DNA of 64,000 bases from a virus (IMGVR_UViG_3300008050_007409), one strand, 5' to 3'. Positions 1,825 through 19,462 are shown, counted from the first letter of the stretch. Notes: generated by a model not told the origin, from the sequence alone. Made by a program: numbers and translations.

Positions 1825-2487
1825 TCAGAGCACCAGGGGCACGGAGACTGCCTGCCCTGCGTAGGTGGTCACGCTCAGGTAGGCCACAGCCTGCTGGCTC
1901 TCCGGGTTGAAGGATACCCGAGTGAACGTGAAGGACAGCAGCCTCTCAGACGGCGGGAGAGCCCTGCCAGCCTGGGCTGCGATGAACTGGGTCTCCGTCC
2001 GGGACGCCGCCTCCGTGAAGACGGCGGCGAGCTGGGCCTTGGAGCTGGGATCCAGGGTCAGGCCCAGGGCCCGGAGAACGTCTCCGCCCTCTGCCCTGTT
2101 GAACCGGTTCGAGCCCGAGTTGGAGAGCATCGACTTGACCAGCTGCTGGATCAGCTTCTGGACGCCCGTGACCTTGGTGATGTTGAAGGTCGGGGTGAAG
2201 ACCAGGCGCACCCGGTTCCCAGAGGTCCACCTGGACGACACGATGGTGATCGCCATCTGACTGGTCGTGGTGTCCTCGAAGCTGTCGCCAGGGAACACCA
2301 GCAGGGTGCGGTCTGACACCGCCGAGAAGTCCGTGATGTCCAGGCCGTTGATGCTGACGGTCTTGGCGTAGCGGACGTCCCCGTCACAGACGAGGCGTAC
2401 AGCTCGCGGGTCCGAGTCCAGAACCTCGGAGGCGGACAGAACCCGGATGTCGTCTGCGATGGACAGGAACTGGATGTCGAAGCTCAC
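1825..2487 (-). CDS. Baseplate wedge protein (Ig-like N-terminus, gp25-like C-terminus)
   Basis: 220 aa; VTGVQKLIQQLVKSMLSNSGSNRFNRAEGG...LPPSERLL resembles gp25/lysozyme-like wedge; directly upstream of baseplate J. Confidence 0.65.
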   Translation of the reverse strand: MSFDIQFLSIADDIRVLSASEVLDSDPRAVRLVCDGDVRYAKTVSINGLDITDFSAVSDRTLLVFPGDSFEDTTTSQMAITIVSSRWTSGNRVRLVFTPTFNITKVTGVQKLIQQLVKSMLSNSGSNRFNRAEGGDVLRALGLTLDPSSKAQLAAVFTEAASRTETQFIAAQAGRALPPSERLLSFTFTRVSFNPESQQAVAYLSVTTYAGQAVSVPLVL

Positions 2488-7250: not shown

Positions 7251-7256
7251 GAAGCC

Positions 7257-7262
7257 AGTCTA
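7257..7262 (-). promoter_or_regulatory. Sigma70-like -10 hexamer (TAGACT), probable leaderless transcript
   Basis: TAGACT lies 6 nt upstream of ATG 7250 with no SD sequence. Confidence 0.4.
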
Positions 7263-7273
7263 TCGGTTCTCGA

Positions 7274-8329
7274 CTACGCCAGCATGAGCGCTCCGTAGAT
7301 GCGCCTCCTCTGTGCCGGCGACATCTGGTCCAGGTGGCCCTTTCCGGTGAGATCCTCGGACATCGACATGAACGCCCCGGAGCCGGGGAGATGGCTATCA
7401 GATTCGATCCCCTTGGACTTGGCGAGTCTGTGGATCTGAGCCGGAGAGGGTCCGGAGCCCGGTCCCCGCTTCTCCACCCCAGCTCCTACAGCCATGCCAG
7501 CTCCAGGCATCATCAAGGCCAGCGTCAGCTTGCCCTTCTTGAAGTACTCGTGCCGGCCTCCGTCTCCCTTGATGCCGGCGGCCTCACGCTGCAGACGGGA
7601 CGCCCTCTCCGACCCTCTCGAAGCTGGGAAGCCGCCCTTCGGGGCGATCTTCACAGAAGAGATCGGAGATGCTCGAACCTCCTCTCCTGGGAGCTCCTTG
7701 AAGCCTTTGGAGAGGACCTGATCGATCTTCTTCGTCCGGTAGAAGTCTGCCTGCCAAGCCCCACGCTTCCTGGCCATGAGCTGGGCCTTCACCACCTTCG
7801 GGTCCTTCCTCATGTGGACGAAGACGTCGAAGCTACCGGGATCGGCTTCGGCGAGCATGTGGGTCTGCTCGTAGACTCCGGGCTTGACCTGCTTGCGTGA
7901 GAGGGTTGAGATCTGCTGCGCAGTCATGTTCGGCTTGTCGTAGTGGAAGACCCTCGTACCGGCTTGCTCCGCCAGGGCCTTGGCCGTGGTGCTCTTGCCC
8001 GTACCTCCGGTACCCGAGACTGCGATCCGAGACTTCTTCGGATCCACTCCTGCGTCCTTGAGCGCCTTCAAGATCCGGGCAGCCTCGTCCTTCGCTCCTT
8101 GAGGTAGGGGTCGAGCTGCATCCACCTTCCGAGAACCTCCCTTGCCGACTCCCTTGATCATGGCCCGGAGATTGGCCCGAGTGCCCGGAAGTCGACTGAG
8201 GCCCAGAGCCGTTCCCGCCGCGGCTCCGATGGCGACCCCTCTCCAGGGGAACTTCCGCCTCTTCCGAGAGGCTCCCAGCTTCTCGATCTCGTCCCAGAAG
8301 TAGGTCGCTGACGTGGTGGAGATGTTCAT
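7274..8329 (-). CDS. Basic tagged protein with P-loop (NMP-kinase-like) domain, putative virion cargo
   Basis: N-terminal FWDEIEKLG; Walker A IAVSGTGGTGKST; Gly-rich hydrophobic segments on both sides. Confidence 0.6.
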   Translation of the reverse strand: MNISTTSATYFWDEIEKLGASRKRRKFPWRGVAIGAAAGTALGLSRLPGTRANLRAMIKGVGKGGSRKVDAARPLPQGAKDEAARILKALKDAGVDPKKSRIAVSGTGGTGKSTTAKALAEQAGTRVFHYDKPNMTAQQISTLSRKQVKPGVYEQTHMLAEADPGSFDVFVHMRKDPKVVKAQLMARKRGAWQADFYRTKKIDQVLSKGFKELPGEEVRASPISSVKIAPKGGFPASRGSERASRLQREAAGIKGDGGRHEYFKKGKLTLALMMPGAGMAVGAGVEKRGPGSGPSPAQIHRLAKSKGIESDSHLPGSGAFMSMSEDLTGKGHLDQMSPAQRRRIYGALMLA

Positions 8330-9000
8330 CAGGACACCGTGACCGTGATGGTGGGGAGGGTGATCGTCGGGTGCTGGAGCCTCTCGATCACGTCGCCATC
8401 AGGCTCCTGGTACTCGTTGACCTCGTCGGTGTCGACCTCGGTGATCTCGATGGTGACGGTCCCGGCCTTGAGGGCGCGGAAGGACAGGTTGGCCACCTGC
8501 ACCACCACCGTCTCGTCGCTGATCTCAATCTCCAAGGCCCCCTGCACGGAGCTCCCCGCCTCCTCGCCGTTGGAAAGGGTGGTCGTGATGTCCAGGGTGA
8601 ACTGCTCCTCGACCTCGGCCTCATAGTCATCGCCGTCGTCGAACTCGATCTCGGTGATGTAGGGGAAGATGAGCGCCACCAGGTCGATGGAGCTCTCCTC
8701 TGGGACCACGACGGTTCGGACCAGGTCCGATTCCCTGCCTGGGATCTCGATCCTGACCGTAGCGCCCTGGTAGAGGTCGAACTCGACGTAGCCGTCGCCG
8801 TCCGACTTGGCGGTCTGGTGCTCGTTGAGGATCAGCGTGTTCGAGCTCACCGCTGCCGGGATGTGGATGTTCCGCACCGTGAGCTTCTCGCTCACCAGAG
8901 CGTCGCCGTGCAGGTCCTTCAAGTAGCCGGACACCCGACACATGTCTGCGTCGGGTTCGCCGCTGCCGGAGATCGCTGTGCCTGTGACCGTGTACCCCAT
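8329..9000 (-). CDS. Acidic virion protein, Ig-like/beta-sandwich
   Basis: 223 aa beta-rich; ALKAGTVTI Big-like motif; coupled start/stop. Confidence 0.55.
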   Translation of the reverse strand: MGYTVTGTAISGSGEPDADMCRVSGYLKDLHGDALVSEKLTVRNIHIPAAVSSNTLILNEHQTAKSDGDGYVEFDLYQGATVRIEIPGRESDLVRTVVVPEESSIDLVALIFPYITEIEFDDGDDYEAEVEEQFTLDITTTLSNGEEAGSSVQGALEIEISDETVVVQVANLSFRALKAGTVTIEITEVDTDEVNEYQEPDGDVIERLQHPTITLPTITVTVS

Positions 9001-9797
9001 CAGGATCCTCCTCGGGCCTTGCCTGTCCAGTAGGCCTGTCCAGGCCCGCTGACGTGTCGCTTCCCGTCTGGGGTGAAGCTGTAGGACACGTTGTCCTTCC
9101 CGAGGACCTCGGACATCTGACCCTCTGCTGTCATCCTCGAGGGGACCTTCACCACGCGCTTCTCCCCGATGGGGACGTCGCGAGCCGCCTTCCCACCCCA
9201 GGGGACGTGCTTCCGGGCCTTCCTCGCCCTGTCCAGGTAGAGGTCGAAGCTGTGGGACTTCTTCTGGCTGCGCAGGCGCTCCAGGACGGCCTCGGCCTCC
9301 CTGTGGCCCTTCAGCGTCTGCTCCAGGTCGTGCGCTACCTGGAGCTGCTCTGTGGAGCGGCCAACGCCCTTGACCTGCCCCTGGGCCTCCCGCAACTGCT
9401 TGATCCTCGCCCCGGAGCCAGAGACGTTGGACTTCTGCTTCCGGATGGCGATGTCCAGGGGCTTGAAGATCCTCTGGAAGGCCTCTCGGCTGAGTCTGGC
9501 GTCCCTGGCGGTGAGATGCTTGCGTCGGATCGCGGAGGCCCCCAGACTCAGCGCAGCGGCTCCAGATCCACCCATGACGGCTGCCTTGCCCAGGCGCTTG
9601 AGGAAGTCCTGCTTCTCGCTCTTGGAGAGGTCCCTGCCGTAGATCTGACCGTTCTGGAGCCAGTAGCGGGGCTCCTTCGTCTGGAAGGTCTTGGTGGCGA
9701 GGAAGCCTCCAGCGCCGCCCCCCACGACCAGGCCGGCCAGAGCTTCCAGAGCTCTGGCCTTGGCAGGCGTCATGGCGGCAGTCTTGATCTGAGGCAT
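9000..9797 (-). CDS. Basic Gly-rich protein (K-x-A tag), putative virion cargo
   Basis: MPQIKTAA start; two Gly-rich hydrophobic helices; K/R-rich. Confidence 0.55.
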   Translation of the reverse strand: MPQIKTAAMTPAKARALEALAGLVVGGGAGGFLATKTFQTKEPRYWLQNGQIYGRDLSKSEKQDFLKRLGKAAVMGGSGAAALSLGASAIRRKHLTARDARLSREAFQRIFKPLDIAIRKQKSNVSGSGARIKQLREAQGQVKGVGRSTEQLQVAHDLEQTLKGHREAEAVLERLRSQKKSHSFDLYLDRARKARKHVPWGGKAARDVPIGEKRVVKVPSRMTAEGQMSEVLGKDNVSYSFTPDGKRHVSGPGQAYWTGKARGGS

Positions 9798-10627
9798 CAG
9801 CTGATCGTCAGGGAGAGGCTGGAGGAGGTGAGGTACTCGCCCTCGTTGTCGGGATCATCCTTCTTTACCCGAACGGTAGCCGGTGAGTCCAGCTCCTCGG
9901 GCACGACGAAGATGAGCACCGTGCCGTCGTCGGAGACCGCCTCGGGCGTGACCTCCTCACCACCGATGGTGACGATGGGGTTGTCCCCGTTGAAGTACGA
10001 GCCCTTGATCGCCACAGAGTCGCCTTCGGAGGCGGTGCTGGGGAGGAGCTCGGAGATGACCGGCGTGACGTTCTCCCAGGCCAGCACGACCACGCTGGTG
10101 GGGTTCTCCTCGGAGAAGTCGTAGCCGCTCTTGGAGAAGCGGGCGTAGTAGCTCCCGGTGGGCAGGTCGAAGGAGACCTCGCCCGACGAGTCCGTGAGCG
10201 CCTTGCCGACCAGGCCGGAGCCGGTGCTGGTGAGGAGCCGGACCAGGACGCCCTCGATGGGGTTCTCCGAAGCATCCTCCACCGTGATCTCCAGAGTGCC
10301 CTCAGCGCCGTAGAGGGTCTGCCCGATCAGGTCCTGGGACTCGTGAGCGACCTGCAGGTGGATCTCGTGGGTGTCGTTGTCCACCAGGCGGAGGTAGGTC
10401 AGGCCAACCTCCGAGGGGGTCACGACGAGCTCGTAGTACCCGGGGAGATCCGAGTCATCGACTTCGGCCAGGGTCAGCGAGAGGTCTGTCTCTGGGTCCG
10501 AGCTCAGGGCGCCAGCAACCGCGGCGGAGATGGTGAAGTCTCCGATCACCAAGCCGGTCGTGTCCGACGAATCGATGATGGGGATGCGGAGCTGCCGTCC
10601 CTTGACGGCCTGGTAGATGTTCGGCAT
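9797..10627 (-). CDS. Virion protein with carboxypeptidase-regulatory-like and IPT/TIG domains
   Basis: PIEGVLVRL...TDSSGEVSFDLPTGSYYARFSKSGY followed by PVISELLPSTASEGDSVAIKGSYF. Confidence 0.7.
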   Translation of the reverse strand: MPNIYQAVKGRQLRIPIIDSSDTTGLVIGDFTISAAVAGALSSDPETDLSLTLAEVDDSDLPGYYELVVTPSEVGLTYLRLVDNDTHEIHLQVAHESQDLIGQTLYGAEGTLEITVEDASENPIEGVLVRLLTSTGSGLVGKALTDSSGEVSFDLPTGSYYARFSKSGYDFSEENPTSVVVLAWENVTPVISELLPSTASEGDSVAIKGSYFNGDNPIVTIGGEEVTPEAVSDDGTVLIFVVPEELDSPATVRVKKDDPDNEGEYLTSSSLSLTIS

Positions 10628-10630
10628 GGA

Positions 10631-10783
10631 TCAACCGGCCTTGACGACGGCGAAGGCATCCTTCTTGTCGCCCACGAGGGTGAGGAGGTTGGCCGAGGGC
10701 TGCTTGGGCAGGACCCCTCCGCCGTCCTGGTAGCTGTCGAGGGCTGAACCTCCGCCTGCGCTGCTTCCGCTGATCTGATCCAT
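10631..10783 (-). CDS. Small hypothetical protein (50 aa)
   Basis: ATG 10783 overlaps the upstream stop: MDQISGSSAGGG...AVVKAG. Confidence 0.5.
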   Translation of the reverse strand: MDQISGSSAGGGSALDSYQDGGGVLPKQPSANLLTLVGDKKDAFAVVKAG

Positions 10784-10983
10784 CAGACATCCACTCCCAA
10801 CGTGGCGAGGTAGTCGTTGGCCTCGTCTATGGCCTGCTGGGTGGTGTTCTCGCTGGCCTCCGTCGACGCGGTCTTGATGCGCTGGAGCTGCTCGACCCGT
10901 GAGTCGACCTCGGCGCACTTGGCGTCGAAGACCTCCTTGACCGCGTCCTTGACCGCCTGAGCCTGAGTCGCCACGTCGCTCAT
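10783..10983 (-). CDS. Small coiled-coil hypothetical protein
   Basis: 66 aa, ATGA coupling. Confidence 0.6.
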   Translation of the reverse strand: MSDVATQAQAVKDAVKEVFDAKCAEVDSRVEQLQRIKTASTEASENTTQQAIDEANDYLATLGVDV

Positions 10984-11732
10984 GTCAGACCTCGCTTCTT
11001 CATCTTGTCGTCGATGCTCTTGCGGAGCCGGCTCACCTTCGGGCCCGAGACGTTCATCCGCCTGGCGATATCCTTGGCCGGGAGCTTGGGCTTGCCGTTG
11101 ACGCCCAGGGTGTACTCGTAGACCACGCGCTCCTGCATGGTCAGATCATGGTAGATGTAGCGCAGGATGTCCCGCTCCTCGCTCTCGAACAACGAGGGAA
11201 GCTGATCAGGCTCCGGCGTCATGGAGGCGATCCGGTCCTGGCGGAGCTCGGTCTCCATGCGACCCACCTCGGCCACGCTCCAGGTGTACTTCGGGTTGTG
11301 GGCCTGCAGCGCCTCCGACAGGGTTACAGCGTCCGGAGGATGGCCGAGCTGTTCGGTCAGATCCGCCCTGACTTCCTTGAAGGGGGTGATCTGGAGGGCA
11401 CGGCCTTCGGGGATCCGCCCGAAGTTCTGGTGCTCGATGGTGAAGGACCGGAGCTTGCGCAGCTGCCAGTTCACCCAGGTGCGCACTCCGGCGCCCTTCT
11501 CGTTGTCCGGGTCGTAGGTCTGGAGACCCTTGAGGGCCAGCATCCGACCCTTGGATCGAAGCGCCTGCTCCGGGACCACGAAGTTCTTGGTCTTCGAGAA
11601 CTCGCTGACCTTCCAGTCGACGTCCGGCTCGAACTCCTTCAGGAGAGGCTCGAGGTTCGCCTCCGTCGGATCTGCTTGCCAGGTCTTCCAGAGTTCGAGC
11701 TGCCTCTCCGCATCTGGATTGCGGCGAGCCAT
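10980..11732 (-). CDS. Phage-encoded sigma-70 family RNA polymerase sigma factor
   Basis: Region-2-like LKGLQTYDPDNEKGAGVRTWVNWQL, region-3-like LTEQLGHPPDAVTLSEAL, region-4 HTH LTMQERVV...AKDIARRMNVSGPKVSRL. Confidence 0.85.
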   Translation of the reverse strand: MARRNPDAERQLELWKTWQADPTEANLEPLLKEFEPDVDWKVSEFSKTKNFVVPEQALRSKGRMLALKGLQTYDPDNEKGAGVRTWVNWQLRKLRSFTIEHQNFGRIPEGRALQITPFKEVRADLTEQLGHPPDAVTLSEALQAHNPKYTWSVAEVGRMETELRQDRIASMTPEPDQLPSLFESEERDILRYIYHDLTMQERVVYEYTLGVNGKPKLPAKDIARRMNVSGPKVSRLRKSIDDKMKKRGLT

Positions 11733-11735
11733 TGA

Positions 11736-12278
11736 TCAGTACCCCGGACCGCTGCTTCCGCCACCGTAGCCCTGCTTCTTGTTCTTCTGGATGTCGTAGA
11801 CGCGCTTCCCACCGACAGCGGCTCCCGTGAGGCCGAGGCCGGCGGCGGTGCCGATGGCTACACGGCGGAGGGTGGAGGATCCGCCCTTCTTGTTGGTGGT
11901 GTTGGGGAGATCCACATGGGTGGGCGACTTCCGAGCGGGCTTCCCTTCCAGGATCCGGAGGGCGGAGTCCTGGTTCCCCCGTCCGGTACGGATCGCCTTC
12001 TTGGCCGCATCCCTCTCCACCTGGATCTGGGCCGTGGCCTTGCTGCGGGCCGCCTTCGCTCTGAGCCTGGATGCGTCAGCCATTCGGTGATCATCCGTGA
12101 AGGGCATGAACTTCTTCCACCCTCCCCAGCCAGTCGCGTTCCCTACTCGTTGGTGTTGCTTGGCGGCTCTGTTCGCCTGGGAAACCAGGCGATGTGCCTG
12201 ACGGCTGTAGGCGATCTTCTCCATCTCGGTCCAGAAGGCCTGGGCGATGGCGCGTCCGCGGGTGTCGAAGCTGTTCAT
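11736..12278 (-). CDS. Basic tagged protein, putative virion cargo
   Basis: AFWTEMEKIA; C-terminal Gly-zipper helix RRVAIGTAAGLGLTGAAVGG. Confidence 0.6.
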   Translation of the reverse strand: MNSFDTRGRAIAQAFWTEMEKIAYSRQAHRLVSQANRAAKQHQRVGNATGWGGWKKFMPFTDDHRMADASRLRAKAARSKATAQIQVERDAAKKAIRTGRGNQDSALRILEGKPARKSPTHVDLPNTTNKKGGSSTLRRVAIGTAAGLGLTGAAVGGKRVYDIQKNKKQGYGGGSSGPGY

Positions 12279-12284
12279 GTTGAT

Positions 12285-13430
12285 CTACCTGTAGACGACG
12301 GTGGTTTTGTTGCCAGCTGCCAGACCAGCGCCGCCTGCCAGCATGGTGCCGGCACCGCCCATCGCCCCCATGACGTTGGTGCGCTGATGCCTATTGAGGC
12401 CTCCCCACCACATCCCCATACGGGACTGACCCTGCTGCATGGGACCTTGGATGGGGGCTCCTCCCAACCCGAAATGGCGCTGGGCCCACGGCTGCTCTGC
12501 GGCGACTGGCGGTGCTCCTGTCGGAGCAACAGGACGACCTGCGGTTGCAGCGGGGTTGACCGGCTGAGCCGGCGCTCCCCCAACCACCGGCTGAGTAGCC
12601 GTGGGGGTCGGAGTCGGCTGAGCTGCCGTGGTGGGGGCAGCCGCGGGCTTGGCTGCGGCCTGCCTGCGAGCGAGCTCGGCTTCGATCTTCTTCTTCCGAT
12701 CTGCCTTCCGCTGACTCTTGGTCATCTGAGGCTTCTTGGGAGTGGCAGCCTGCGTAGGGGCGGGAGCAGTAGGACGTGCGGCAGTAGGAGTGCCGACGAC
12801 CTTGGGCTGACTCAGGGCAGCCGATGCCGGTCCACGTGATCGGTCGGCGAGCGCAACGGATGCCGGACCCTTCCGCGCTCCGGCCTGGGCTCCCCCGGGA
12901 ACCTGGACCCGTGCTCCAGGTCCGGGACCGGACGGAGGCTTCGGCATCTCGATACGAGCGCGAGGGGTACTGGACAGCGGAGCGGGCTTGGCACCGGTGA
13001 GGTCGATGGTGGGCTTCCGAATCTTGCTGGGGCTCACCCCGCGGTAGGCCGACTGGAACTGAACAGAGGCGTTGTCAGCGACAGCCCGAGCTTTGTTCTG
13101 CACGGTTCGCTTGGCTCGGCCGGCCGCGGCCTGGGCACTGCGTCCGAGGTTCTGAGCACTGCGTCCGGCACCAACCACACCAGTTCCGAGGCCTTCGAGT
13201 CCAGCGGCAGCTCCACGACCTACGGCCCGGCCTCCTCGCGCCAGGTGGCCGAGTCCTCTGGCTACAGTACCTACGAAGGCGATCTTCTCGATCTCATCGT
13301 TGAAGGAGGCCACGGCGAGGTACTCGTTGGCCCCTGCGCGTGCCAACGCCTCGTCAGCAGCCCGGCGGAAGGATGCTGCGGATCCTCGGTGGTCCTGCGC
13401 GATCTTGTTCAGGGCTGAGGCGTGGGTCAT
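12285..13430 (-). CDS. Basic Pro/Ala-rich tagged protein, putative virion cargo
   Basis: ALNKIA and SFNDEIEKIA; long P/A/T low-complexity region; C-terminal Gly-rich helix. Confidence 0.6.
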   Translation of the reverse strand: MTHASALNKIAQDHRGSAASFRRAADEALARAGANEYLAVASFNDEIEKIAFVGTVARGLGHLARGGRAVGRGAAAGLEGLGTGVVGAGRSAQNLGRSAQAAAGRAKRTVQNKARAVADNASVQFQSAYRGVSPSKIRKPTIDLTGAKPAPLSSTPRARIEMPKPPSGPGPGARVQVPGGAQAGARKGPASVALADRSRGPASAALSQPKVVGTPTAARPTAPAPTQAATPKKPQMTKSQRKADRKKKIEAELARRQAAAKPAAAPTTAAQPTPTPTATQPVVGGAPAQPVNPAATAGRPVAPTGAPPVAAEQPWAQRHFGLGGAPIQGPMQQGQSRMGMWWGGLNRHQRTNVMGAMGGAGTMLAGGAGLAAGNKTTVVYR

Positions 13431-15262
13431 GATCTCATCCTATCCGATGGGGGCGTACCCTTCTCGCGGGTAGGCCTCGATCGAAGGATCTTAGCCGCGA
13501 GGGCACCTGTAGCGAAAGGTGCAGCGTATGTCGACCCTGCCGCCAGGAGGCGAGCTGCGGCCCTCCCGAGCTGTCGGTTGCTCGCTCCCATCCGCTTCAT
13601 GTACTGCAGGCCCTTGGCCGTTGCAGTCGCTTCTTCCGCCAGCAGGGGAGCTCCAAGCAGTAGGGAGACCCCTCCGATGCGCTCCGCGAACTTCGCCTTG
13701 GCTTCGATCTCCTCCTTGGTGTGGAAGGATCGATCCGAGGCGCTGTCCAGGACGATCAGGGGAATCACCACAGCAGGGATGCGTGCGATCTCCCCGGCCT
13801 TCCGGGCGGCGGGGGACGCGATGGTCTTGCGGCGGAGCTCCCCGGCAGTCGCATGCCCAAGCTCGTGGGCCAGGTCGGAGGCCCTGGAGGCGGACACGAC
13901 GCCCTTGACCTTCCCTCCCTTGATCTTCTTCGCCAGGGCTCTGGCCTTGGCCTGCGCCTCCGGACTGGCCTCGCTGTGGGTGGACAGCAGCTCAGCGGCC
14001 TCTCCAGACAGGTCTGAGGGGTCGAAGCCTCGGTAGTAGGCCGAGGGCTTCTTGCCGAAGTGGATGCTGTCTCCGGACGAGCCGGCGTTGATCCTCTCCA
14101 GGCCACGATCGGCAGACATCTGATCCAAGGCATCCTGGAGGACCAGGTCCTTTTCCTTGGCCTTCATCGGACTGATGCCCAGCTCCCAGACCAGGGAAGG
14201 GGCTGCGATCACGGCTGCAGCTGCAGCCGTGTGGGCGATGGAGGTGCCCTTCATCATCGGAGGATGGGTCTGGTGCCGCACTTGCTCCCTGGGCACCGGC
14301 AGGCCTCGTGTCCTGAGCTCGTCGTTGACCGCGTAGGTCACGGCCCGTCGAGAGGGGGTCCTCTCCGGATCCGGCCGTTGCTTGAGGAAGCTCTGAAGCC
14401 CCTGGTCAGACACGCCCCGCGCCTGGGATCGGGTGCTCGCGTAGAGCTGCCCGGCAGAGGATGCGGCAGTCAGCTGAGGTTGAGGCTGGTACTCCGAGGA
14501 CTTCTTGGTCATCATCCGAGCTGCCTCGGAGATGGCGACCGCGCCGATCACTCCAGCAGCGGCACGTCCGGCAGCGGCGCCACCGATCCCCCTCAAAGCC
14601 TTCCCGGCGTTGGGCCCCTTCAACGACTTCAGGGTCTTCTTGGCCCCGTCCTCGACGACCTTCTCGATGGCTCCCTTGGGGGCTCCGATCCCTGCTCCGA
14701 TCAAGGCCGGCACTGCTACCCGGTCCTTCCAAGAGAGCTTCTTGCCCTTCTTCTGTGCCTTGGCGATGGATCTGGCGGTGATGGCTGCGGACCCCAGGCC
14801 GATGATGCCTCGAGTCCCTCCGATCTTCTTGGCGAGGTCCTTGATCTGAGTGGAGGTGAGCCCCCGACCTCGGTTCTTGATCCCGGCTTCGAGCCCGCCC
14901 TTGATGCCGGAGTAGGCCCCTCCCGCGGCGAGGACCTTGGCTGTCCCTTCCCTCTGACGCCCTTCCTTGAGGTCCTTGATCCCCGAGTAGAACAGAGGCG
15001 TGGTGAGGACGGACGCACCGAGGCGTCCCGAGGCCCTGCCGAAGCCGGACTTCCATGCCTTGGCCTTGACCGCAGGCTTCAGGCCCTTGGAGACCGCGAC
15101 CTCGACCTTCTTGTCGACCCACCCCTTCGGGAAGTCAGCCGCAGACGTAGCGACGGCCACGGGGGCCGCAGCAAGCATCTGCGCCCCGTAGTTCCGCTTC
15201 TTCGACTTCTCCTGAGCGATCTTGCAGAGCTCGTAGGAGAAGGCCAGTCGCTCCAGGTCCAT
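13427..15262 (-). CDS. Tagged multi-helix protein with C-terminal HExxH zinc metallopeptidase domain
   Basis: AFSYELCKIA; multiple Gly-zipper helices; LAHELGHA...LLAEEATATAKGL...LAAGSTYAA resembles the neutral zinc metallopeptidase family. Confidence 0.7.
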   Translation of the reverse strand: MDLERLAFSYELCKIAQEKSKKRNYGAQMLAAAPVAVATSAADFPKGWVDKKVEVAVSKGLKPAVKAKAWKSGFGRASGRLGASVLTTPLFYSGIKDLKEGRQREGTAKVLAAGGAYSGIKGGLEAGIKNRGRGLTSTQIKDLAKKIGGTRGIIGLGSAAITARSIAKAQKKGKKLSWKDRVAVPALIGAGIGAPKGAIEKVVEDGAKKTLKSLKGPNAGKALRGIGGAAAGRAAAGVIGAVAISEAARMMTKKSSEYQPQPQLTAASSAGQLYASTRSQARGVSDQGLQSFLKQRPDPERTPSRRAVTYAVNDELRTRGLPVPREQVRHQTHPPMMKGTSIAHTAAAAAVIAAPSLVWELGISPMKAKEKDLVLQDALDQMSADRGLERINAGSSGDSIHFGKKPSAYYRGFDPSDLSGEAAELLSTHSEASPEAQAKARALAKKIKGGKVKGVVSASRASDLAHELGHATAGELRRKTIASPAARKAGEIARIPAVVIPLIVLDSASDRSFHTKEEIEAKAKFAERIGGVSLLLGAPLLAEEATATAKGLQYMKRMGASNRQLGRAAARLLAAGSTYAAPFATGALAAKILRSRPTREKGTPPSDRMRS

Positions 15263-15289
15263 GTCCCTACCTCCTGGGAGGAGGCGAGA

Positions 15290-15952
15290 TCAGGCCTCCG
15301 AAACGACGTTGTTCCGGTTCATCAGGGCGACGTTGTCCGCGCCGGCGGCGACGCTCTCCATGTGCGGGGAGGCCGAGTTCTCGTCGATGATGAACGAGCA
15401 GACGTGGGCCCAGGCGGTGACGCCATCGTGCACGGAGTCGGAGGCCTCCAGGGCCGCCTGGATCTCGGTGCTCGACAGGTGCGAGGTCTCGTCCTCGTAG
15501 TCCGTGCTGTCGCCGTTCACGATCAGGACGAGCAGGGCAGCGCCGTCGTCGTCTTCGTCCGCGTCACCGGCTCCATCGCTGTTGCACACGATGAGGGTGC
15601 AGTAGGCGGTCTCGTCCGTGCTGAGCGACAGGGCCGTCGCGGCCGTGCCGTCCTCGTAGATGGCTGCTCCCACGCTGCCGCTGGTGGCCAGGAGGTCGGT
15701 GTTGGTCAGAGCGGAGATCGTCTGCATCAGGCGCCCGCCCAGCATGCAGCGCAGGGCGGTCATGTCGGCGCTGAAGGTGCCCGCCGCGATCGAGGAGCCC
15801 TCGGTGACCACGCCGCCCTCGAGAACCTCGCTCCGCTCACGGAAGGCGTTCACGATCTTCTGGCGGATCAGCTTGAGCTCGTAGCCCCAGCCCTTGCGGG
15901 GGGTCCAGTTGAACAGCTTCTGGAGGGCGTTCTTGCCGGTGGCGAGGCTCAT
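15290..15952 (-). CDS. Acidic virion structural protein (possible head decoration)
   Basis: 220 aa, strong SD AGGAG, own putative promoter; function inferred from context only. Confidence 0.5.
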   Translation of the reverse strand: MSLATGKNALQKLFNWTPRKGWGYELKLIRQKIVNAFRERSEVLEGGVVTEGSSIAAGTFSADMTALRCMLGGRLMQTISALTNTDLLATSGSVGAAIYEDGTAATALSLSTDETAYCTLIVCNSDGAGDADEDDDGAALLVLIVNGDSTDYEDETSHLSSTEIQAALEASDSVHDGVTAWAHVCSFIIDENSASPHMESVAAGADNVALMNRNNVVSEA

Positions 15953-15957
15953 GCGGG

Positions 15958-16025
15958 TGCTCCTGCGGTAGGGTCTTGGCCTTCAGGGGTGATCCCTGTC
16001 CGGACCAGGTTGCCCGAGGAGCATA
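15958..16025 (-). promoter_or_regulatory. Structured leader with -10-like TATGCT and an SD-sequestering stem
   Basis: Minus-strand TGCTCCTCGG pairs with CCG(C)AGGAGCA containing the SD; TATGCT at 16025-16020 overlaps the 5' arm. Confidence 0.45.
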
Positions 16026-16031
16026 GCACTT

Positions 16032-17297
16032 TCACTTCTCCTTGCCCAGGAAGGCGTTGACCAGGCGGAGGCGCTTGGCGCTCCGGATCCGGTGGACCGG
16101 GTTGAGTCCCCGCTTCCGAGGCTTCCTGGGCTTCTCAGCTGCTGTTCTGACCATCCCTCGCTGCTGAGGTACCGGCTTCTTGGGCTTCATCCACTTGTTG
16201 ACCTTGACTGCCCCGTAGGTGCCCGCGCCCAGGACACTCAACCCTCCTGCAGCTCGGAGGGCGTTCATGGGCTGGGCCTTGATGCCTTGGATGATCTGCT
16301 TGACGGCGCTCTCCTTGTCCATGTCGCTGGCCGCTGAGTTCTTGCCTCCGGTGCCCTCCTCCTCGTCCTCGTTCTCCTCCGGCGTCTTGATCCGGTTCTT
16401 CTTGGACTTGGGTGCCTTCTGAGTGATGATCTGCTTGGCCCCACACTTCCGGCAGTGGTTGTCGTCCTCCTGGCAGACGGCTCCGCACTCGAGGCAGTTC
16501 TTCCGGCCTTCTTCGCTGAGGAGATCCTCCGTCTGGATCGTCCCCTCATCGGAGTCGTCAGCGGGGAGACGGGAAGACGCGGCCTTGGACTTCCCCTTCT
16601 TCAGTCGAGACTGGAACTCCTTCTCAGCATCCCGACCCTTCTGGTACTGGACGTGAGCACCTCCCGCACCGATGGCTCCACCCAGCCCCAACTGTGCGTA
16701 CCCGCCCGCCAGCTCCTTCCTGGCACCAGGTAGAACCTGCTTGGCTTGATCTTGGGAGATCCTGTTGGAGCTTGACGTCCTGAGAGGACTGCCGGCCTTC
16801 AGGGCCTTCTCGGCTTGGTCACGTGCCGCGTCGACACTGGCGTTGTCAGACATGTAGCGGAGGTTCTTCTTCTGGGCCTTGGTCAGGCTGACCCCGCCAG
16901 TGGTCTTGGCTGCACGGTTCAGAGTCTTGACAGCCTTCGTCCCTCGGTAGACAGACTCCAAGGGGTATTTCGCCCCACGAACGGCCCCCGATACAGCTCC
17001 GCGAGCCATGCCTCGGACGCCGCCACCGCTCGCCAACCCCTTCCCTGCTCCGATCAGCCCGTGAATGGCGGAAGGAACGACGACAGCCCCACCGACAACA
17101 CCACCGGCAACACCTGCCATCTGCTTCTTCCGATGCGTCTTCCTGCTGAGCCCCTTCCGCTGAGCCTCCTGCCCGTAGCGGCTGGTGTAGGCCCCAAAGG
17201 GATCGATGCCGGCCGCGAAGTCCTTCGCGTACCCTGCCGTCTTGATGATCTCGTCCATCTCCTGCAGCATGGCGAGCTCGATCATCTCAGACATCAC
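16032..17297 (-). CDS. Basic tagged protein with double zinc ribbon, putative virion cargo
   Basis: MLQEMDEIIKTA; Gly-zipper helices; CLECG...CRKCG. Confidence 0.6.
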   Translation of the reverse strand: MMSEMIELAMLQEMDEIIKTAGYAKDFAAGIDPFGAYTSRYGQEAQRKGLSRKTHRKKQMAGVAGGVVGGAVVVPSAIHGLIGAGKGLASGGGVRGMARGAVSGAVRGAKYPLESVYRGTKAVKTLNRAAKTTGGVSLTKAQKKNLRYMSDNASVDAARDQAEKALKAGSPLRTSSSNRISQDQAKQVLPGARKELAGGYAQLGLGGAIGAGGAHVQYQKGRDAEKEFQSRLKKGKSKAASSRLPADDSDEGTIQTEDLLSEEGRKNCLECGAVCQEDDNHCRKCGAKQIITQKAPKSKKNRIKTPEENEDEEEGTGGKNSAASDMDKESAVKQIIQGIKAQPMNALRAAGGLSVLGAGTYGAVKVNKWMKPKKPVPQQRGMVRTAAEKPRKPRKRGLNPVHRIRSAKRLRLVNAFLGKEK

Positions 17298-19462
17298 GGA
17301 CCTCCTCCGAACCAGCGGTACACGCGGGAGTCCCGCTTCTTCTGCTCGTGGGTATGCCTCTGCTGTAGCACATCCCGGAGCTCCCTCGTGTTCCTCGACT
17401 TCCGATCCGCAGTCATGTAGGCGTACTGACCCACGCTGCGCTCCGCCTTCTGGAACGTGATCGTCTGCCAGAAGTTCTTGGGCACGGCCGTGACGTAGCG
17501 GTTGACGATCACGCCGCGCTTGTCCAGGGGCCGATGGCTCTGCCCGCCGGCCCTGATGCCGCGGGCCGCGGCCTGGTTCATGCGCTCGGGGTTGTAGTGC
17601 GGATCAGCCAGCGCCACCATCGTCGTGTTGCCCAGGGAGAGGCCCTCGGCCCCAGCCCCGGTGATGATGATCACCTTCTTCTTCCCGGCCTTGTAGTCCT
17701 CCACGTCCTGCTGACGCCGCTCCTCGGTCATGCCCTTCATGGACTTGCCAGCGAAGACCCCGTGCTCGATGCCTCGGGCCGTCAGTCCAGCGCTGATGAC
17801 GTCGACCCCACCCTTCACCAGGTTGGTGTAGATGATCACCTTCCCGTCCGAGGTGGTCTTGAGGTGCTTCTGCACGTCGTCCATGATCCGCTTGATCTTC
17901 GGAGTCCGCTCAGCGGACTGGGCCGGGGTGAGCTTCCGGTTGACCAGGTGCATGGAGTTCGAGATCTGCTGGGCACGCTGCAGGCGGGTGAAGGCGTTCA
18001 TCTCCTCCCGCTTGTTGAGCATGATCCCCAGGCTGATCTTCCGGCGCAGAGCCGGGTCCACGCCCTTCATGGCCATCTTGTAGGCCCGGAGCTGCTCCGA
18101 GCTCATGGGCACCGCCACGTCCTTGACGTGCTTGGGCGGCTTCTCGGTGGCGTTCAGATCCTCGATGTAGTGGATGGAGCCGCCGATCCGGTTGTAGAGC
18201 TGCTCCTTGTTCTTGAGCCGCTTCTCCATGACCTTGCCACCGAAGACGCCTCGCTGGGCGGTCTGCACCCTCTGAGTGTGCTGGCGGTGGAACTGCCTCT
18301 TGGTCTTGATCGGAGCCTTTCCGCCTGTGACCAGGTTGACCAGGGGGACGGCGTCGGAAGAGTCGTTCTGGGCGATCGAGGCCGTCAGGCCCATCACGTT
18401 GGGCACCCTGGTCCGTGCGTAGGCGATGGCCTTGTGGGTGGAGCTGTCCGGGTTGCCCGCCCGGTGGAACTCGTCCGCGATGAGCGTGTCGGGCTTGTAG
18501 GCGTCGATGAAGGCCTGGGGGTTCCGTCGGAAGGCTGAGTAGGACACCACGACGTACTCGGTGTCCTGGCTGACCTTCTGGTTGGCGTTGGTGAGCATCA
18601 CGCTCTTGGATCCGGTGAACTTGCCGACGCTGTCGTGGAAGTTCTTGCGCAGCCCTGCCGGGGCGATGACCAGGGCTCGCTTGGCCTTGCCCTGACCCTT
18701 GAGCTTCTCGAAGGTGGCAATGGCCGAGACCGTCTTGCCGGTGCCCGTGCCATGGGCGGCGATGTGGCCAGAGGTCGGATCCTTCAGCACCTTCTTGGCG
18801 AAGTCCGCCTGGTGGGCCTTGAGCTTGACGAAGCCCTTGAGCCGGTTCTTCGTGACCCAGGTACGTCCGGCCTGTTCGTTGCCGAACTGGTCGTGTCCCT
18901 TCTGACCGGCCGGGAGCCGGCGCCAGTGGCCTCCTGACTCTGCGATCTTCTGGAACTCGACCTGGAAGGAGGCGAGGGCGACGTTCGACGCTGCCACCTT
19001 CCTGAGCTGGTCCGGAGGGACCAGCTTGAAGCGCATGTCGGACTTGCGGATCCTCGCCCGCACAGCGGGAGGCACATCGTGGAAGTTGTGCTTGATGACC
19101 CTCTTGAGGCTCGTCGGGGCGACGGCGTCCTTGTGGAACAGGTAGTGCTTCCCGACCCGGTGGGCGTGCAGCTTCCCCTTCCGCCAGGTGGGGGTGAACA
19201 ACCGCTCGCCAGGCAGTGGGATCGCCATGCGAGTCTTCTTGAACCCACGCTCCTTGAGGTCCCCGATCTCCTTCGCGGACACCGCCACCTGAGGGTGCGT
19301 CCAGCCTGGGTTGACCACCTGTTCGATGGCATCCAGGATCTGCTTCTCCGCCTTACCTCCATCCACGGAGATCAGCGGAACAGAGCTGTCCTTGGCGATC
19401 TTCTCCATCCCGACGAGAGCCTCGTCAGCGCGGAGTGCCTGGAACCAGCGCTGGGTGCTCAT
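17294..19462 (-). CDS. SNF2-family (SF2) helicase with tagged N-terminal extension
   Basis: AHGTGTGKT, DEFH, LTAS, GAEGLSL, NPERMNQAAARGIR; tags GMEKIA and SFQVEFQKIA. Confidence 0.85.
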   Translation of the reverse strand: MSTQRWFQALRADEALVGMEKIAKDSSVPLISVDGGKAEKQILDAIEQVVNPGWTHPQVAVSAKEIGDLKERGFKKTRMAIPLPGERLFTPTWRKGKLHAHRVGKHYLFHKDAVAPTSLKRVIKHNFHDVPPAVRARIRKSDMRFKLVPPDQLRKVAASNVALASFQVEFQKIAESGGHWRRLPAGQKGHDQFGNEQAGRTWVTKNRLKGFVKLKAHQADFAKKVLKDPTSGHIAAHGTGTGKTVSAIATFEKLKGQGKAKRALVIAPAGLRKNFHDSVGKFTGSKSVMLTNANQKVSQDTEYVVVSYSAFRRNPQAFIDAYKPDTLIADEFHRAGNPDSSTHKAIAYARTRVPNVMGLTASIAQNDSSDAVPLVNLVTGGKAPIKTKRQFHRQHTQRVQTAQRGVFGGKVMEKRLKNKEQLYNRIGGSIHYIEDLNATEKPPKHVKDVAVPMSSEQLRAYKMAMKGVDPALRRKISLGIMLNKREEMNAFTRLQRAQQISNSMHLVNRKLTPAQSAERTPKIKRIMDDVQKHLKTTSDGKVIIYTNLVKGGVDVISAGLTARGIEHGVFAGKSMKGMTEERRQQDVEDYKAGKKKVIIITGAGAEGLSLGNTTMVALADPHYNPERMNQAAARGIRAGGQSHRPLDKRGVIVNRYVTAVPKNFWQTITFQKAERSVGQYAYMTADRKSRNTRELRDVLQQRHTHEQKKRDSRVYRWFGGGP

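What the first reader, a model, noticed from the sequence alone, without database searches (positions are those of the whole stretch)
7274..19462. Family of tagged virion-cargo proteins sharing an F-x-x-E-h-x-K-I-A motif
Seen: otherwise dissimilar ORFs inside the tail module carry the same short motif: FWDEIEKLG (8329), FWTEMEKIA (12278), FNDEIEKIA plus ALNKIA (13430), FSYELCKIA (15262), GMEKIA plus FQVEFQKIA (19462), and looser EMDEIIKTA (17297) and QIKTAA (9797). The sequence after the motif is strongly K/R-rich, usually with Gly-zipper hydrophobic helices, whereas the interleaved structural proteins are acidic and I did not see the full motif in them. Attached domains differ: P-loop, HExxH peptidase, zinc ribbon, SNF2. 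Established: T4 and phiKZ load internal head proteins via propeptides cut by the prohead protease after Glu. Inference: an analogous capsid-loading and cleavage tag with different (K-x-A) specificity, delivering a modular set of effectors and membrane-active proteins into the host with the DNA. Strongest candidate for an undescribed system in this window.
Basis: partly seen in the sequence, partly recalled or inferred. Interest (0 to 1): 0.85.

Follow-up and report, generated by a model that had tools for sequence, protein, structure and literature searches.

The report
Phage capsid-cargo leader and cleavage motif
Seven very basic proteins encoded among the tail genes of a large uncultured marine phage start with the same short peptide, which is most likely the cut site and loading label of the phage's head-maturation protease: phage T4's trick for packing proteins into the capsid, but with a different recognition code.

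Summary
Every listed motif is present, near the N-terminus of seven minus-strand genes (7274-19462). All seven products have pI 10-11.8. The interleaved structural proteins have pI 4.1-5.6. The strict pattern occurs 4-5 times against 0.15 expected.

The core is hydrophobic-x-K-x-A, usually followed by S/A/G. Orthologs keep it. In two related IMG/VR phages, E-K-[IVLT]-A is about 10-fold over-represented and concentrated in virion genes (odds ratio 12, p=2e-8). It sits at the major capsid protein N-terminus and occurs several times in acidic scaffold-like proteins.

It also brackets a conserved 230-residue domain with invariant His and Ser. The model of that domain matches the T4 gp21 capsid protease (Z 9.0) and herpesvirus proteases. 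Across 63 distinct related loci (GC 39-69%) there are 523 coding-strand hits against 4 on the opposite strand.

The cultured relative Salmonella phage Arash carries the helicase ortholog, a sigma factor and RNA polymerase in its virions.

Best reading: a T4-like capsid-targeting and cleavage leader with new specificity (Ala at P1, Lys at P3) on a set of ejected enzymes. Cleavage, loading and ejection are untested.

The scan had already noted this motif in this genome's head region and in two other genomes.

The parts
7274..8329 (-). Tagged cargo gene 1: 351-aa basic protein (pI 10.5, net +32) with a Walker A P-loop. The leader motif FWDEIEKLG is at 8273-8299.
   Evidence: The G1 homolog (35% identity) starts with YAFCDELEKIA and lies elsewhere in that genome.
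9000..9797 (-). Tagged cargo gene 2: 265-aa basic Gly/Ala-rich protein (pI 10.7). It has a short leader, with QIKTAA at 9774-9791.
   Evidence: The G1 protein at the same slot starts MRPYLQHLEKTAA, a canonical motif.
11736..12278 (-). Tagged cargo gene 3: 180-aa basic protein (pI 11.2). FWTEMEKIA is at 12210-12236.
   Evidence: The slot equivalents in G3 (FFLAEMEKCAS) and G1 (FEDELEKIAR) keep the motif.
12285..13430 (-). Tagged cargo gene 4: 381-aa basic, low-complexity protein (pI 11.8). ALNKIA is at 13398-13415 and FNDEIEKIA at 13278-13304.
   Evidence: The G1 slot equivalent has GAFDGELEKIAA.
13427..15262 (-). Tagged cargo gene 5: 611-aa basic protein (pI 10.3). The N-terminal half is helical and Gly/Ala-rich. 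The C-terminal part has a HExxH...E zincin-like signature. FSYELCKIA is at 15215-15241.
   Evidence: 24 homologs; in the 18-sequence alignment F8 and K14 are nearly invariant and H466, H470 and E544 are conserved. AlphaFold model pLDDT 72. No Pfam, PDB-sequence or Foldseek match.
16032..17297 (-). Tagged cargo gene 6: 421-aa basic protein (pI 10.0) with one hydrophobic Gly-rich segment and a CxxC...CxxC zinc ribbon. EMDEIIKTA is at 17235-17261.
   Evidence: Its body recurs inside the fusion protein P0017, directly after a KVKTA site (36% identity, E 5e-26).
17294..19462 (-). Tagged cargo gene 7: 722-aa SNF2-type helicase (pI 10.4). The order is leader GMEKIA (19394-19411), a roughly 130-aa mobile N-terminal domain, a second motif FQVEFQKIA (18941-18967), then the helicase core.
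   Evidence: Pfam SNF2 E 3e-15. The core is 31% identical to Arash gp217, a virion protein. G3 has DLTKVA directly before the same GHWRxLP start of the core. The N-domain is also fused to InPase+Hint in P0177.
8329..9000 (-). Interleaved untagged acidic Ig-like structural protein (pI 4.1). It serves as a contrast class.
9797..10627 (-). Interleaved untagged acidic Ig/TIG-domain structural protein (pI 4.1).
10980..11732 (-). Sigma-factor-like gene inside the block, untagged (pI 8.9). Its G1 and G3 orthologs match Arash gp10, which was found in virions.
15290..15952 (-). Interleaved untagged acidic conserved protein (pI 4.2).
19459..21930 (-). Conserved hub-like structural protein heading the block. 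It is translationally coupled to the SNF2 gene.
   Evidence: 1120 relatives at E<=1e-3.

Best explanation
The shared peptide is the recognition and cleavage site of this phage clade's prohead (head-maturation) serine protease. The core is hydrophobic-x-Lys-x-Ala, probably cut after Ala.

At the N-terminus of the seven basic proteins the core is extended to [F/Y]-x-x-E-h-x-K-h-A. This is an amphipathic helix (the hydrophobic residues sit at i, i+4 and i+7). It would act like the T4 capsid targeting sequence: it docks the protein into the assembling prohead core and is then clipped off.

The released basic proteins (an SNF2 helicase, a zincin-like HExxH protein, a P-loop protein, a zinc-ribbon protein and small Gly/Ala-rich proteins) stay with the DNA in the capsid. 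They are probably ejected into the host with it.

Shown here:
- the motif, its enrichment and its conservation;
- its position at the capsid-protein N-terminus and around the protease domain in relatives;
- the protease fold.

Inferred: cleavage itself, the scissile bond, capsid loading and ejection.
For: 1. All seven tags are real, N-terminal, and sit only on proteins of pI 10-11.8.
2. Orthologs down to 32% identity keep the tag. Slot equivalents in G1 and G3 keep it too.
3. EK[IVLT]A counts are 25 against 2.4 expected in G1 and 36 against 3.1 in G3. In complete G3 there are 33 in virion blocks and 3 elsewhere (odds ratio 12.4, p=2e-8).
4. There are several sites per protein in acidic head-module proteins, and S/A/G follows in 40 of 60 sites.
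5. The capsid protein (PHROG 2522; 28% identical to the Arash capsid protein) has K-x-A at residues 22-27 in nearly all of 45 distinct homologs.
6. A conserved domain has invariant H144 and S200 and near-invariant K40/A42 and K269/A271 at its two disordered borders. The model (pLDDT 80) matches T4 gp21 (Z 9.0, rmsd 2.8 A, 131 residues) and then herpesvirus proteases. Phage G gp19, called a head maturation protease in PMC12484599, matches at E 9e-11.
7. In 63 distinct loci with GC 39-69% there are 523 EK[ILVTM]A on the coding strand, 4 on the opposite strand and 12 in the reversed control.
8. The extended form is enriched at N-termini: 13 of 44 sites against 5 of 87 (p=4e-4).
9. Fusion and fission of cargo modules happens at K-x-A junctions.
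10. Arash virions contain the helicase ortholog gp217 (1148 spectra), sigma factor gp10 and the RNA polymerase (PMC10585845).
Against: - There is no experimental cleavage or packaging data for any member.
- This phage's own protease and capsid genes lie outside the window and could not be fetched, so the link rests on relatives that are 32-58% identical.
- The protease family has no sequence-level match to Pfam S77/S78 or to T4 gp21 (hhalign probability 0.1%). Only the fold and the His/Ser pair agree.
- In the window, the residue after the motif is A, Y, F, Q, Q, G, K, E or A, which is less canonical than at head-module sites.
- Arash gp217 has no leader and is reported at 100% coverage. The G1 homolog of the 421-aa body starts without a tag. 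A tag is therefore not always needed for virion residence.
- The capsid N-terminal segment upstream of K-x-A is itself conserved, so that site could be structural rather than a cut site.
Confidence: 0.65

Rival explanations
1. The motif is a short docking helix for a common partner (portal, scaffold, capsid interior or a chaperone) and is not cleaved. It marks virion-internal proteins by binding only.
For: The extended N-terminal form is predicted helical and amphipathic. The residue after the motif in the window's tags is often bulky or charged. Several Arash proteins are reported at 100% coverage.
Against: The core sits at both disordered borders of the protease domain in nearly all 52 aligned family members. 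It occurs 3-8 times per protein in linkers of scaffold-like proteins and of the protease's C-terminal extension. It marks fusion junctions. That pattern is typical of cut sites, as in T4, phiKZ and SPN3US (PMC9026906, PMC10052503).
Confidence: 0.15
2. The tagged proteins are cargo of the tail or baseplate, or host-membrane proteins made late (holin-like or superinfection-exclusion-like) whose N-terminal motif plus basic patch is a membrane-anchor signal. The likeness to head-protein sites is coincidental.
For: The genes lie in the tail/baseplate operon and are translationally coupled to it. Three of the seven have moderately hydrophobic Gly/Ala-rich segments after a basic patch.
Against: Four of the seven have no hydrophobic segment, and a cytoplasmic-type SNF2 helicase and a P-loop protein carry the same tag. 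The identical motif is 10-fold enriched in head genes and brackets the protease. T4 Alt-family genes also sit next to baseplate genes yet load into heads (PMC5512222).
Confidence: 0.1
3. The cutter is not the gp21-like serine protease but the conserved tagged HExxH zincin-like protein or proteins. These would process the cargo either in the capsid or after ejection, as proposed for metallopeptidase domains of polyvalent proteins.
For: HExxH...E is invariant in 18 orthologs of the 611-aa protein. G3 has a second HExxH protein. PMC5512222 proposes autoproteolytic metallopeptidases in virion-delivered proteins.
Against: The motif brackets the Ser/His protease domain, not the HExxH domain. Capsid and scaffold processing is the classical task of the gp21/assemblin fold. 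The HExxH domain matched no peptidase family or structure.
Confidence: 0.07
4. The shared peptide is only inherited from a common ancestor of paralogous genes, or reflects a nucleotide-level signal. It has no function of its own.
For: Codons are similar in the window (GAG ATC GAG AAG ATC GC), as expected at 64% GC.
Against: The proteins share nothing else and carry unrelated domains. The motif holds in loci from 39 to 69% GC and only in the coding frame and strand (523 against 4). Residues vary within chemical classes (I/V/L/T; E/Q/C/T).
Confidence: 0.03

Closest known systems
Phage T4 capsid targeting sequence (CTS) on IPI, IPII, IPIII and Alt, removed by prohead protease gp21 (PMC9026906)
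   Same: - A short N-terminal leader (10-19 aa in T4; 7-51 aa predicted here) on otherwise unrelated, mostly basic proteins.
- The leader ends in the motif that also occurs in the capsid protein, the scaffold and the protease itself.
- The protease has the same fold (Z 9.0 to PDB 5JBL).
- The cargo genes lie outside the head gene cluster.
   Different: - The motif is h-x-K-x-A (Ala at the presumed P1, Lys at P3) and not L/I-x-E.
- There is no sequence similarity to gp21.
- The leader has a longer fixed pattern (F-x-x-E-h-x-K-h-A).
- The cargo includes large enzymes (SNF2 helicase, zincin-like protein, P-loop protein).
- Nothing has been tested experimentally.
phiKZ gp175 / SPN3US gp245 prohead proteases and their ejection or inner-body proteins (PMC10052503, PMC9026906)
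   Same: A giant-phage head with many internal and ejected proteins, including an RNA polymerase. There are N-terminal propeptides of 20-24 or more than 100 residues, multiple cuts within propeptides, and self-processing of the protease.
   Different: Those proteases cut after Glu (A/S/G-x-E). Here the motif ends in Ala, with Lys two residues before. The lineage is different: the relatives are Arash, Vibrio phage D69 and phage G gp19.
Herpesvirus assemblin cleavage sites (consensus V/L/I-x-A then S; from my own knowledge, not checked here)
   Same: The fold is the same (Z 5.5-7.5 to VZV, PRV, HSV, HCMV, EBV and KSHV proteases). The motif likewise ends in Ala and is followed mostly by Ser, Ala or Gly.
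   Different: The extra conserved Lys at P3 and the hydrophobic residue at P5. These are phage rather than animal-virus proteases. A Cys4 zinc-ribbon insert is present in the protease domain.
Polyvalent proteins of phages and conjugative elements (Iyer et al. 2017, PMC5512222); phage P1 Dar proteins
   Same: - The same domain repertoire for virion-delivered effectors: SWI2/SNF2 ATPase, zincin-like metallopeptidase.
- The N-terminal domain of the window's helicase is fused to an InPase domain plus a Hint domain in P0177.
- Fusions such as P0025 and P0017 exist in relatives.
   Different: Here the domains are mostly separate genes, each with its own leader, or are joined through K-x-A junctions. 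That points to processing by the head protease rather than by built-in peptidases.
Salmonella phage Arash (OQ632216; PMC10585845)
   Same: This is the closest cultured relative. It shares the capsid protein, protease family (gp222), large terminase, hub, baseplate J, sigma factor, RNA polymerase and helicase. K-x-A sites are present in gp218, gp220, gp222, gp223, gp225 and at the capsid N-terminus. The helicase, sigma factor and RNA polymerase were found in virions.
   Different: Identity is only 25-37%. Its helicase has no leader. The basic tagged proteins of this window have no detectable Arash homologs. No protease or processing is described in the paper.

Membership tests
T4-type capsid-targeting / prohead-protease substrate system | A prohead protease of the gp21/assemblin fold encoded in the head module | tested here: met
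   Met in relatives G1, G3 and 61 further distinct loci. The model has pLDDT 80 and matches 5JBL at Z 9.0 (rmsd 2.8 A, 131 aligned residues), with herpesvirus proteases next. H144 and S200 are invariant. Not verifiable for this phage itself: the head module is outside the window and no genome is held.
T4-type capsid-targeting / prohead-protease substrate system | The same short motif in the capsid protein, scaffold-like proteins and the protease itself | tested here: met
   Met in relatives. K-x-A is at residues 22-27 of the capsid protein in nearly all of 45 distinct homologs. There are 2-4 sites in acidic head proteins. Sites at both borders of the protease domain are nearly invariant.
T4-type capsid-targeting / prohead-protease substrate system | A short N-terminal leader ending in that motif on unrelated internal proteins | tested here: met
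   Seven window proteins have the K of the first motif at residue 5-21. The extended form is enriched at N-termini (p=4e-4).
T4-type capsid-targeting / prohead-protease substrate system | The leader is cleaved off and the protein is present in mature heads and ejected | not testable with these tools
   The only data are Arash virion mass spectrometry for the helicase, sigma-factor and RNA-polymerase orthologs (PMC10585845). The supplement holds no peptide-level data.
T4-type capsid-targeting / prohead-protease substrate system | Cleavage after Glu in L/I-x-E (T4) or A/S/G-x-E (phiKZ, SPN3US) | tested here: not met
   The enriched motif ends in Ala, with Lys at -2. This is therefore the same kind of system with a different code, not a member of the Glu-specific group.
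Pfam Peptidase_S77 / Peptidase_S78 (sequence families) | A profile match above the family cut-off | tested here: not met
   No match in G1 or G3 at E<=1. hhalign against T4 gp21 gives probability 0.1%. The ESM Atlas lists S77 (0.92) and S78 (0.90) clusters only as the nearest named neighbours.
Polyvalent proteins (PMC5512222) | Two to fifteen effector domains in one polypeptide encoded among virion or transfer genes | tested here: inconclusive
   The helicase has two modules (N-domain plus SNF2). Relatives have fusions (P0025, P0017, P0177). Most window cargo proteins carry a single domain.
Zincin-like metallopeptidase (611-aa protein) | HExxH plus a downstream Glu in a recognisable peptidase fold | tested here: inconclusive
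   The signature is invariant, but there is no Pfam, PHROG, PDB-sequence or Foldseek match.

The most novel reading that the evidence does not exclude
A large, mostly uncultured clade of big phages uses a gp21-fold protease with herpesvirus-like Ala-then-Ser specificity plus a P3 lysine. The clade has 131 IMG/VR relatives of the protease and includes cultured Arash, Vibrio D69-like phages and, distantly, phage G. It also uses a portable 9-residue leader, F-x-x-E-h-x-K-h-A, as a general address label. Any protein, from 80-aa basic peptides to helicases, peptidases and kinases, would be loaded into the capsid through this label. Multi-module cargo would be expressed as polyproteins cut at K-x-A junctions. 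That would be an 'unbundled polyvalent protein' strategy, and a ready-made tag for packing foreign proteins into phage heads.
Probability: 0.45. Interest if true: 0.75.

Novelty: new variant of a known kind. Interest (0 to 1): 0.66.

Why it matters
If confirmed, this would be a second, independent capsid-addressing code besides the Glu-specific one of T4, phiKZ and SPN3US. Its motif is simple enough to predict the internal and ejected proteome of hundreds of uncultured phages from sequence alone.

It would assign a likely fate (packed with the DNA and delivered to the host) to a set of otherwise unannotatable basic proteins, a virion SNF2 helicase and a zincin-like protein. It suggests that modules found fused in 'polyvalent proteins' can also be delivered as separately tagged pieces.

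It would also offer a short tag for loading foreign proteins into phage heads in a clade that has cultured members (Arash, Vibrio phages).

Tried and rejected
This phage's own head module could therefore not be read.
- Single-protein scans of IMG/VR with the 611-aa and hub proteins found nothing. The hub and the 611-aa protein have no match in cultured phages.
- The single metagenome scan gave only four short contigs.
- The search for homologous proteins on the P-loop protein returned nothing, not even the protein itself, probably because Walker-A words swamped the candidates.
- Pfam and PHROGs on 20 G3 head-region proteins did not name a protease. Pfam S77 and S78 were not found in G1 or G3.
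- hhalign of the protease family against T4 gp21 found nothing.
- I first suspected the 246-aa ORF upstream of the scaffold-like gene in G3 as the protease. Reading the frames showed acidic scaffold-like proteins instead.
- The full-length model of the 611-aa protein gave only helical-bundle noise in Foldseek. The PDB profile search was empty, as was the search with the P-loop protein.
- The ESM Atlas gave nothing usable for the helicase N-domain.
- A literature search for 'ELEKIA' hit only plant names.
- The Arash supplement has sequences but no peptide lists.
- A nucleotide-level or paralogy origin of the motif was rejected by the strand, frame and GC-range test.

Full report
**Setting.** The window is 64% GC. 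Its first ~27 kb is a minus-strand late operon with tightly coupled genes. It includes a baseplate-J-like protein at 1-1815 (Pfam E 5e-7, PHROG 6 E 1e-14), a 1588-aa protein, Ig-like proteins, a sigma-like factor and a hub-like protein. The hub has 1120 relatives at E<=1e-3. Protein-cluster data place the window on a 165,236-bp contig with marine (Tara, GOS) relatives. No whole genome is held.

**Observation.**
- The pattern E-h-x-K-[ILTV]-[AG] occurs six times in the six-frame translation of all 64 kb, and all six lie in these genes.
- The strict pattern [FWY]xx[ED]hxK[ILTV][AG] occurs 4 times in my gene set, 5 with one gene my caller missed, against 0.15 +/- 0.40 in shuffles.
- The K of the first motif lies at residue 5-21 in all seven proteins.
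- The seven tagged products have pI 10.0-11.8 and net charge +22 to +63. Ten of the eleven untagged late products have pI 4.1-5.6; the sigma factor has pI 8.9.
- Attached domains: SNF2 is solid. The P-loop and zinc ribbon are weak Pfam hits. HExxH...E is invariant in orthologs but matches no family.
- Truly hydrophobic segments are few, so 'membrane-active' is not well founded.

**Conservation.** The 611-aa protein has 24 homologs at 32-68% identity. In the 18-sequence alignment the leader A-F-x-x-E-L-x-K-I-A is kept, with F8 and K14 nearly invariant.

Two related IMG/VR phages were read in full: G1 (110,689 bp) and G3 (174,678 bp, direct terminal repeats, complete). The structural genes are syntenic with the window. 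The slots between them again hold tagged basic proteins. Examples are YLQHLEKTAA for the counterpart of 9000-9797, GAFDGELEKIAA, FEDELEKIAR and FFLAEMEKCAS.

The cargo in a slot can differ. In front of the 1588-aa gene the window has the 351-aa P-loop protein, whereas G1 has an 82-aa basic protein starting MLPSFAAALEKYA. G1's P-loop homolog, also tagged, lies elsewhere.

**The motif is much wider than the window.**
- In G1 and G3 the core E-K-[IVLT]-A is seen 25 and 36 times, against 2.4 and 3.1 in shuffles. A control read in reverse order is not enriched.
- The logo is (E/D)-(L/A/M)-E-K-(V/L/T/I)-A-(S/A/G).
- In complete G3, 33 sites lie in virion gene blocks (25,077 aa) and 3 elsewhere (28,189 aa). 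The odds ratio is 12.4 and p=2e-8. Two of the three outliers are canonical N-terminal tags on small basic proteins.
- Acidic head-module proteins carry 2-4 sites each.
- The G3 capsid protein (PHROG 2522; 28% identical to the annotated capsid protein of Salmonella phage Arash, E 1e-27) has GIEKTA-A at residues 18-24. G1 has GKEKLA-A and Arash has GLVKEA-G at the same place.
- Nearly all of 45 distinct capsid homologs have K-x-A at residues 22-27.

**The protease.** Pfam and PHROGs did not name one.
- A protein conserved between terminase and capsid genes (G3 65698-67284, G1 81143-82828, Arash gp222) has a ~230-residue N-terminal domain. Its nearest named ESM Atlas clusters are Peptidase_S77 (0.92) and S78 (0.90).
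- IMG/VR holds 131 relatives.
- In a 52-sequence alignment H144 and S200 (I-S-M-G) are invariant. Four Cys of an inserted zinc ribbon are invariant or nearly so, and K269 is invariant. K40, A42 and A271 are nearly invariant. K-x-A therefore sits at both ends of the domain.
- The AlphaFold model (pLDDT 80, pTM 0.76) is ordered from about residue 45 to 270. It is disordered exactly at the two sites.
- Its best PDB match is the T4 capsid assembly protease gp21 (Foldseek probability 0.92; VIA Z 9.0, rmsd 2.8 A, 131 of 165 residues). About 25 herpesvirus protease entries follow at Z 5.2-7.5, ahead of unrelated folds.
- The His-Ser spacing of 56 residues is close to that of gp21 as I recall it. I could not check the residue mapping.
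- Phage G gp19, called a head maturation protease in PMC12484599, matches at E 9e-11.
- The C-terminal extensions of these proteins carry 2-6 further K-x-A sites.

**Clade-wide test.** In 63 distinct loci around this gene, with GC from 39 to 69%, EK[ILVTM]A occurs 523 times in coding-strand ORFs. It occurs 4 times in opposite-strand ORFs and 12 times in a reversed-sequence control. The extended leader pattern occurs 45, 0 and 0 times. This excludes a nucleotide-level or compositional origin.

**Two tiers.** Across the window, G1 and G3, the extended form (aromatic at K-6, acidic at K-3) makes up 13 of 44 sites in the first 70 residues but 5 of 87 internal sites (p=4e-4). It is mostly on net-basic proteins. 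The hydrophobic positions (K-6, K-2, K+1) fall on one face of a helix. In T4, the front part of the 10-residue CTS gives targeting and its last residues give processing (PMC9026906). The same split is a reasonable inference here.

**Modularity.**
- In the window's helicase the second motif (FQKIA-ESGGHWRRLP) directly precedes the core. G3 has DLTKVA-RAGHWRQLEP after a longer N-part. G1 has only a short leader (RWFQKLA). Arash gp217 starts at the core.
- The ~110-residue N-domain of the window's helicase is also found fused to an InPase domain plus a Hint domain (P0177) and to other C-terminal parts. These are typical parts of the virion-delivered 'polyvalent proteins' of PMC5512222.
- The body of the 421-aa protein recurs inside P0017, a homolog of the 611-aa protein, right after a KVKTA site (E 5e-26). 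P0025 fuses the N-half of the 611-aa family to SNF2.
- Fusion and fission at K-x-A junctions fit a cut site.

**Experimental anchor.** Arash is a distant cultured relative. It shares the terminase, hub, baseplate J, sigma factor, RNA polymerase, helicase, protease family and capsid protein at 22-37% identity. Its virion mass spectrometry lists the helicase gp217 (1148 spectra), sigma factor gp10 and RNA polymerase among particle proteins (PMC10585845). That analysis lists 116 proteins and may be over-inclusive. Capsid-protein coverage of 86.6% is compatible with a lost 28-residue leader but does not show it. The supplement has no peptide lists.

**Mechanism proposed.**
1. Late in infection, the tagged basic proteins bind the prohead core through the leader helix.
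2. The gp21-fold protease, freed by cutting at its own flanking sites, cuts after Ala of h-x-K-x-A.
3. Scaffold-like proteins are cut into pieces, and leaders and junctions are removed.
4. The basic mature parts remain with the DNA and leave with it.

*Shown:* the motif, its enrichment and conservation, its placement and the protease fold. *Inferred:* the scissile bond, loading and ejection.

**Caveats.**
- The window's own head genes were not seen.
- The residues after the motif in the window are less canonical than at head sites.
- Some homologs in relatives lack a tag.
- The protease shows no sequence-level link to known families.

**Comparison and novelty.** The logic is that of the T4 CTS/gp21 system and of phiKZ and SPN3US (PMC9026906, PMC10052503). 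The recognition code differs: Ala at P1 and Lys at P3 instead of Glu at P1. In that respect it resembles herpesvirus assemblin sites (from my own knowledge). I found no paper describing this code. The Arash paper does not mention a protease or cleavage, and later citing papers are unrelated. First-stage notes and one follow-up of this scan had reached a similar reading for this genome's head region, and first-stage notes had for two other genomes. My tests were run independently of them.

Noticed in passing
L025:6001-6900 (G3) and alignment A5: The gp21-fold protease family of this clade carries an inserted Cys4 zinc ribbon (C203, C210, C213, C224; invariant or nearly so) between the catalytic Ser strand and the last strands. 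It is fused to a variable 250-1200-aa C-terminal extension full of K-x-A sites.
   Followed up: partly
window 18970-19390 (aa 25-165 of the SNF2 protein): This is a conserved mobile N-terminal domain (W-x-H-P-Q-V-A, I-P-L-P-G-E, G-K-L-H-A-H, Y-L-x-H-x-D) of unknown fold. In other metagenomic proteins it is fused to InPase plus Hint, to a 944-aa protein that JGI names 'YycO', or to other parts. The ESM Atlas gave no usable neighbour.
   Followed up: partly
window 7000-7020 (about aa 77-82 of the 1588-aa protein, 2484-7250): The acidic 1588-aa structural protein has one core-like site, MAKLAS, near its N-terminus. It may be chance or a real processing site.
   Followed up: no
window 10980-11732: A sigma-factor-like gene sits inside the tail/cargo block. 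Its G1 and G3 orthologs match Arash gp10, which was detected in Arash virions together with the phage RNA polymerase.
   Followed up: partly
P0017, P0025 (homologs of 13427-15262): The helical Gly/Ala-rich N-half of the 611-aa family occurs fused to an SNF2 helicase (P0025), or with the 421-aa-type module inserted (P0017). It may therefore be a carrier or DNA-binding module rather than part of the peptidase.
   Followed up: partly
G3 (L013) 7200-7691 and G1 (L008) 2741-3253: A small acidic protein just after the protease gene carries 2-3 K-x-A sites and ends in a CxxC...CxxC zinc ribbon, preceded by a leader-like F-x-H-E-x-x-x-x-K-[IV]-A.
   Followed up: no
window 7274-8329: the search for homologous proteins returned no hit at all for this P-loop protein, not even the protein itself. 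The likely cause is that common Walker-A words filled the candidate list. The only homolog seen is in G1 (35% identity).
   Followed up: no
L023 (Arash) 18849-19451, gp225: The Arash protein just upstream of the capsid gene has at least six K-x-A sites in 200 residues (LSKIA, LVKEA, FEKQA, LEKVA, LEKAA, LNKIA). This is the pattern expected of a scaffold that gets cut up.
   Followed up: partly
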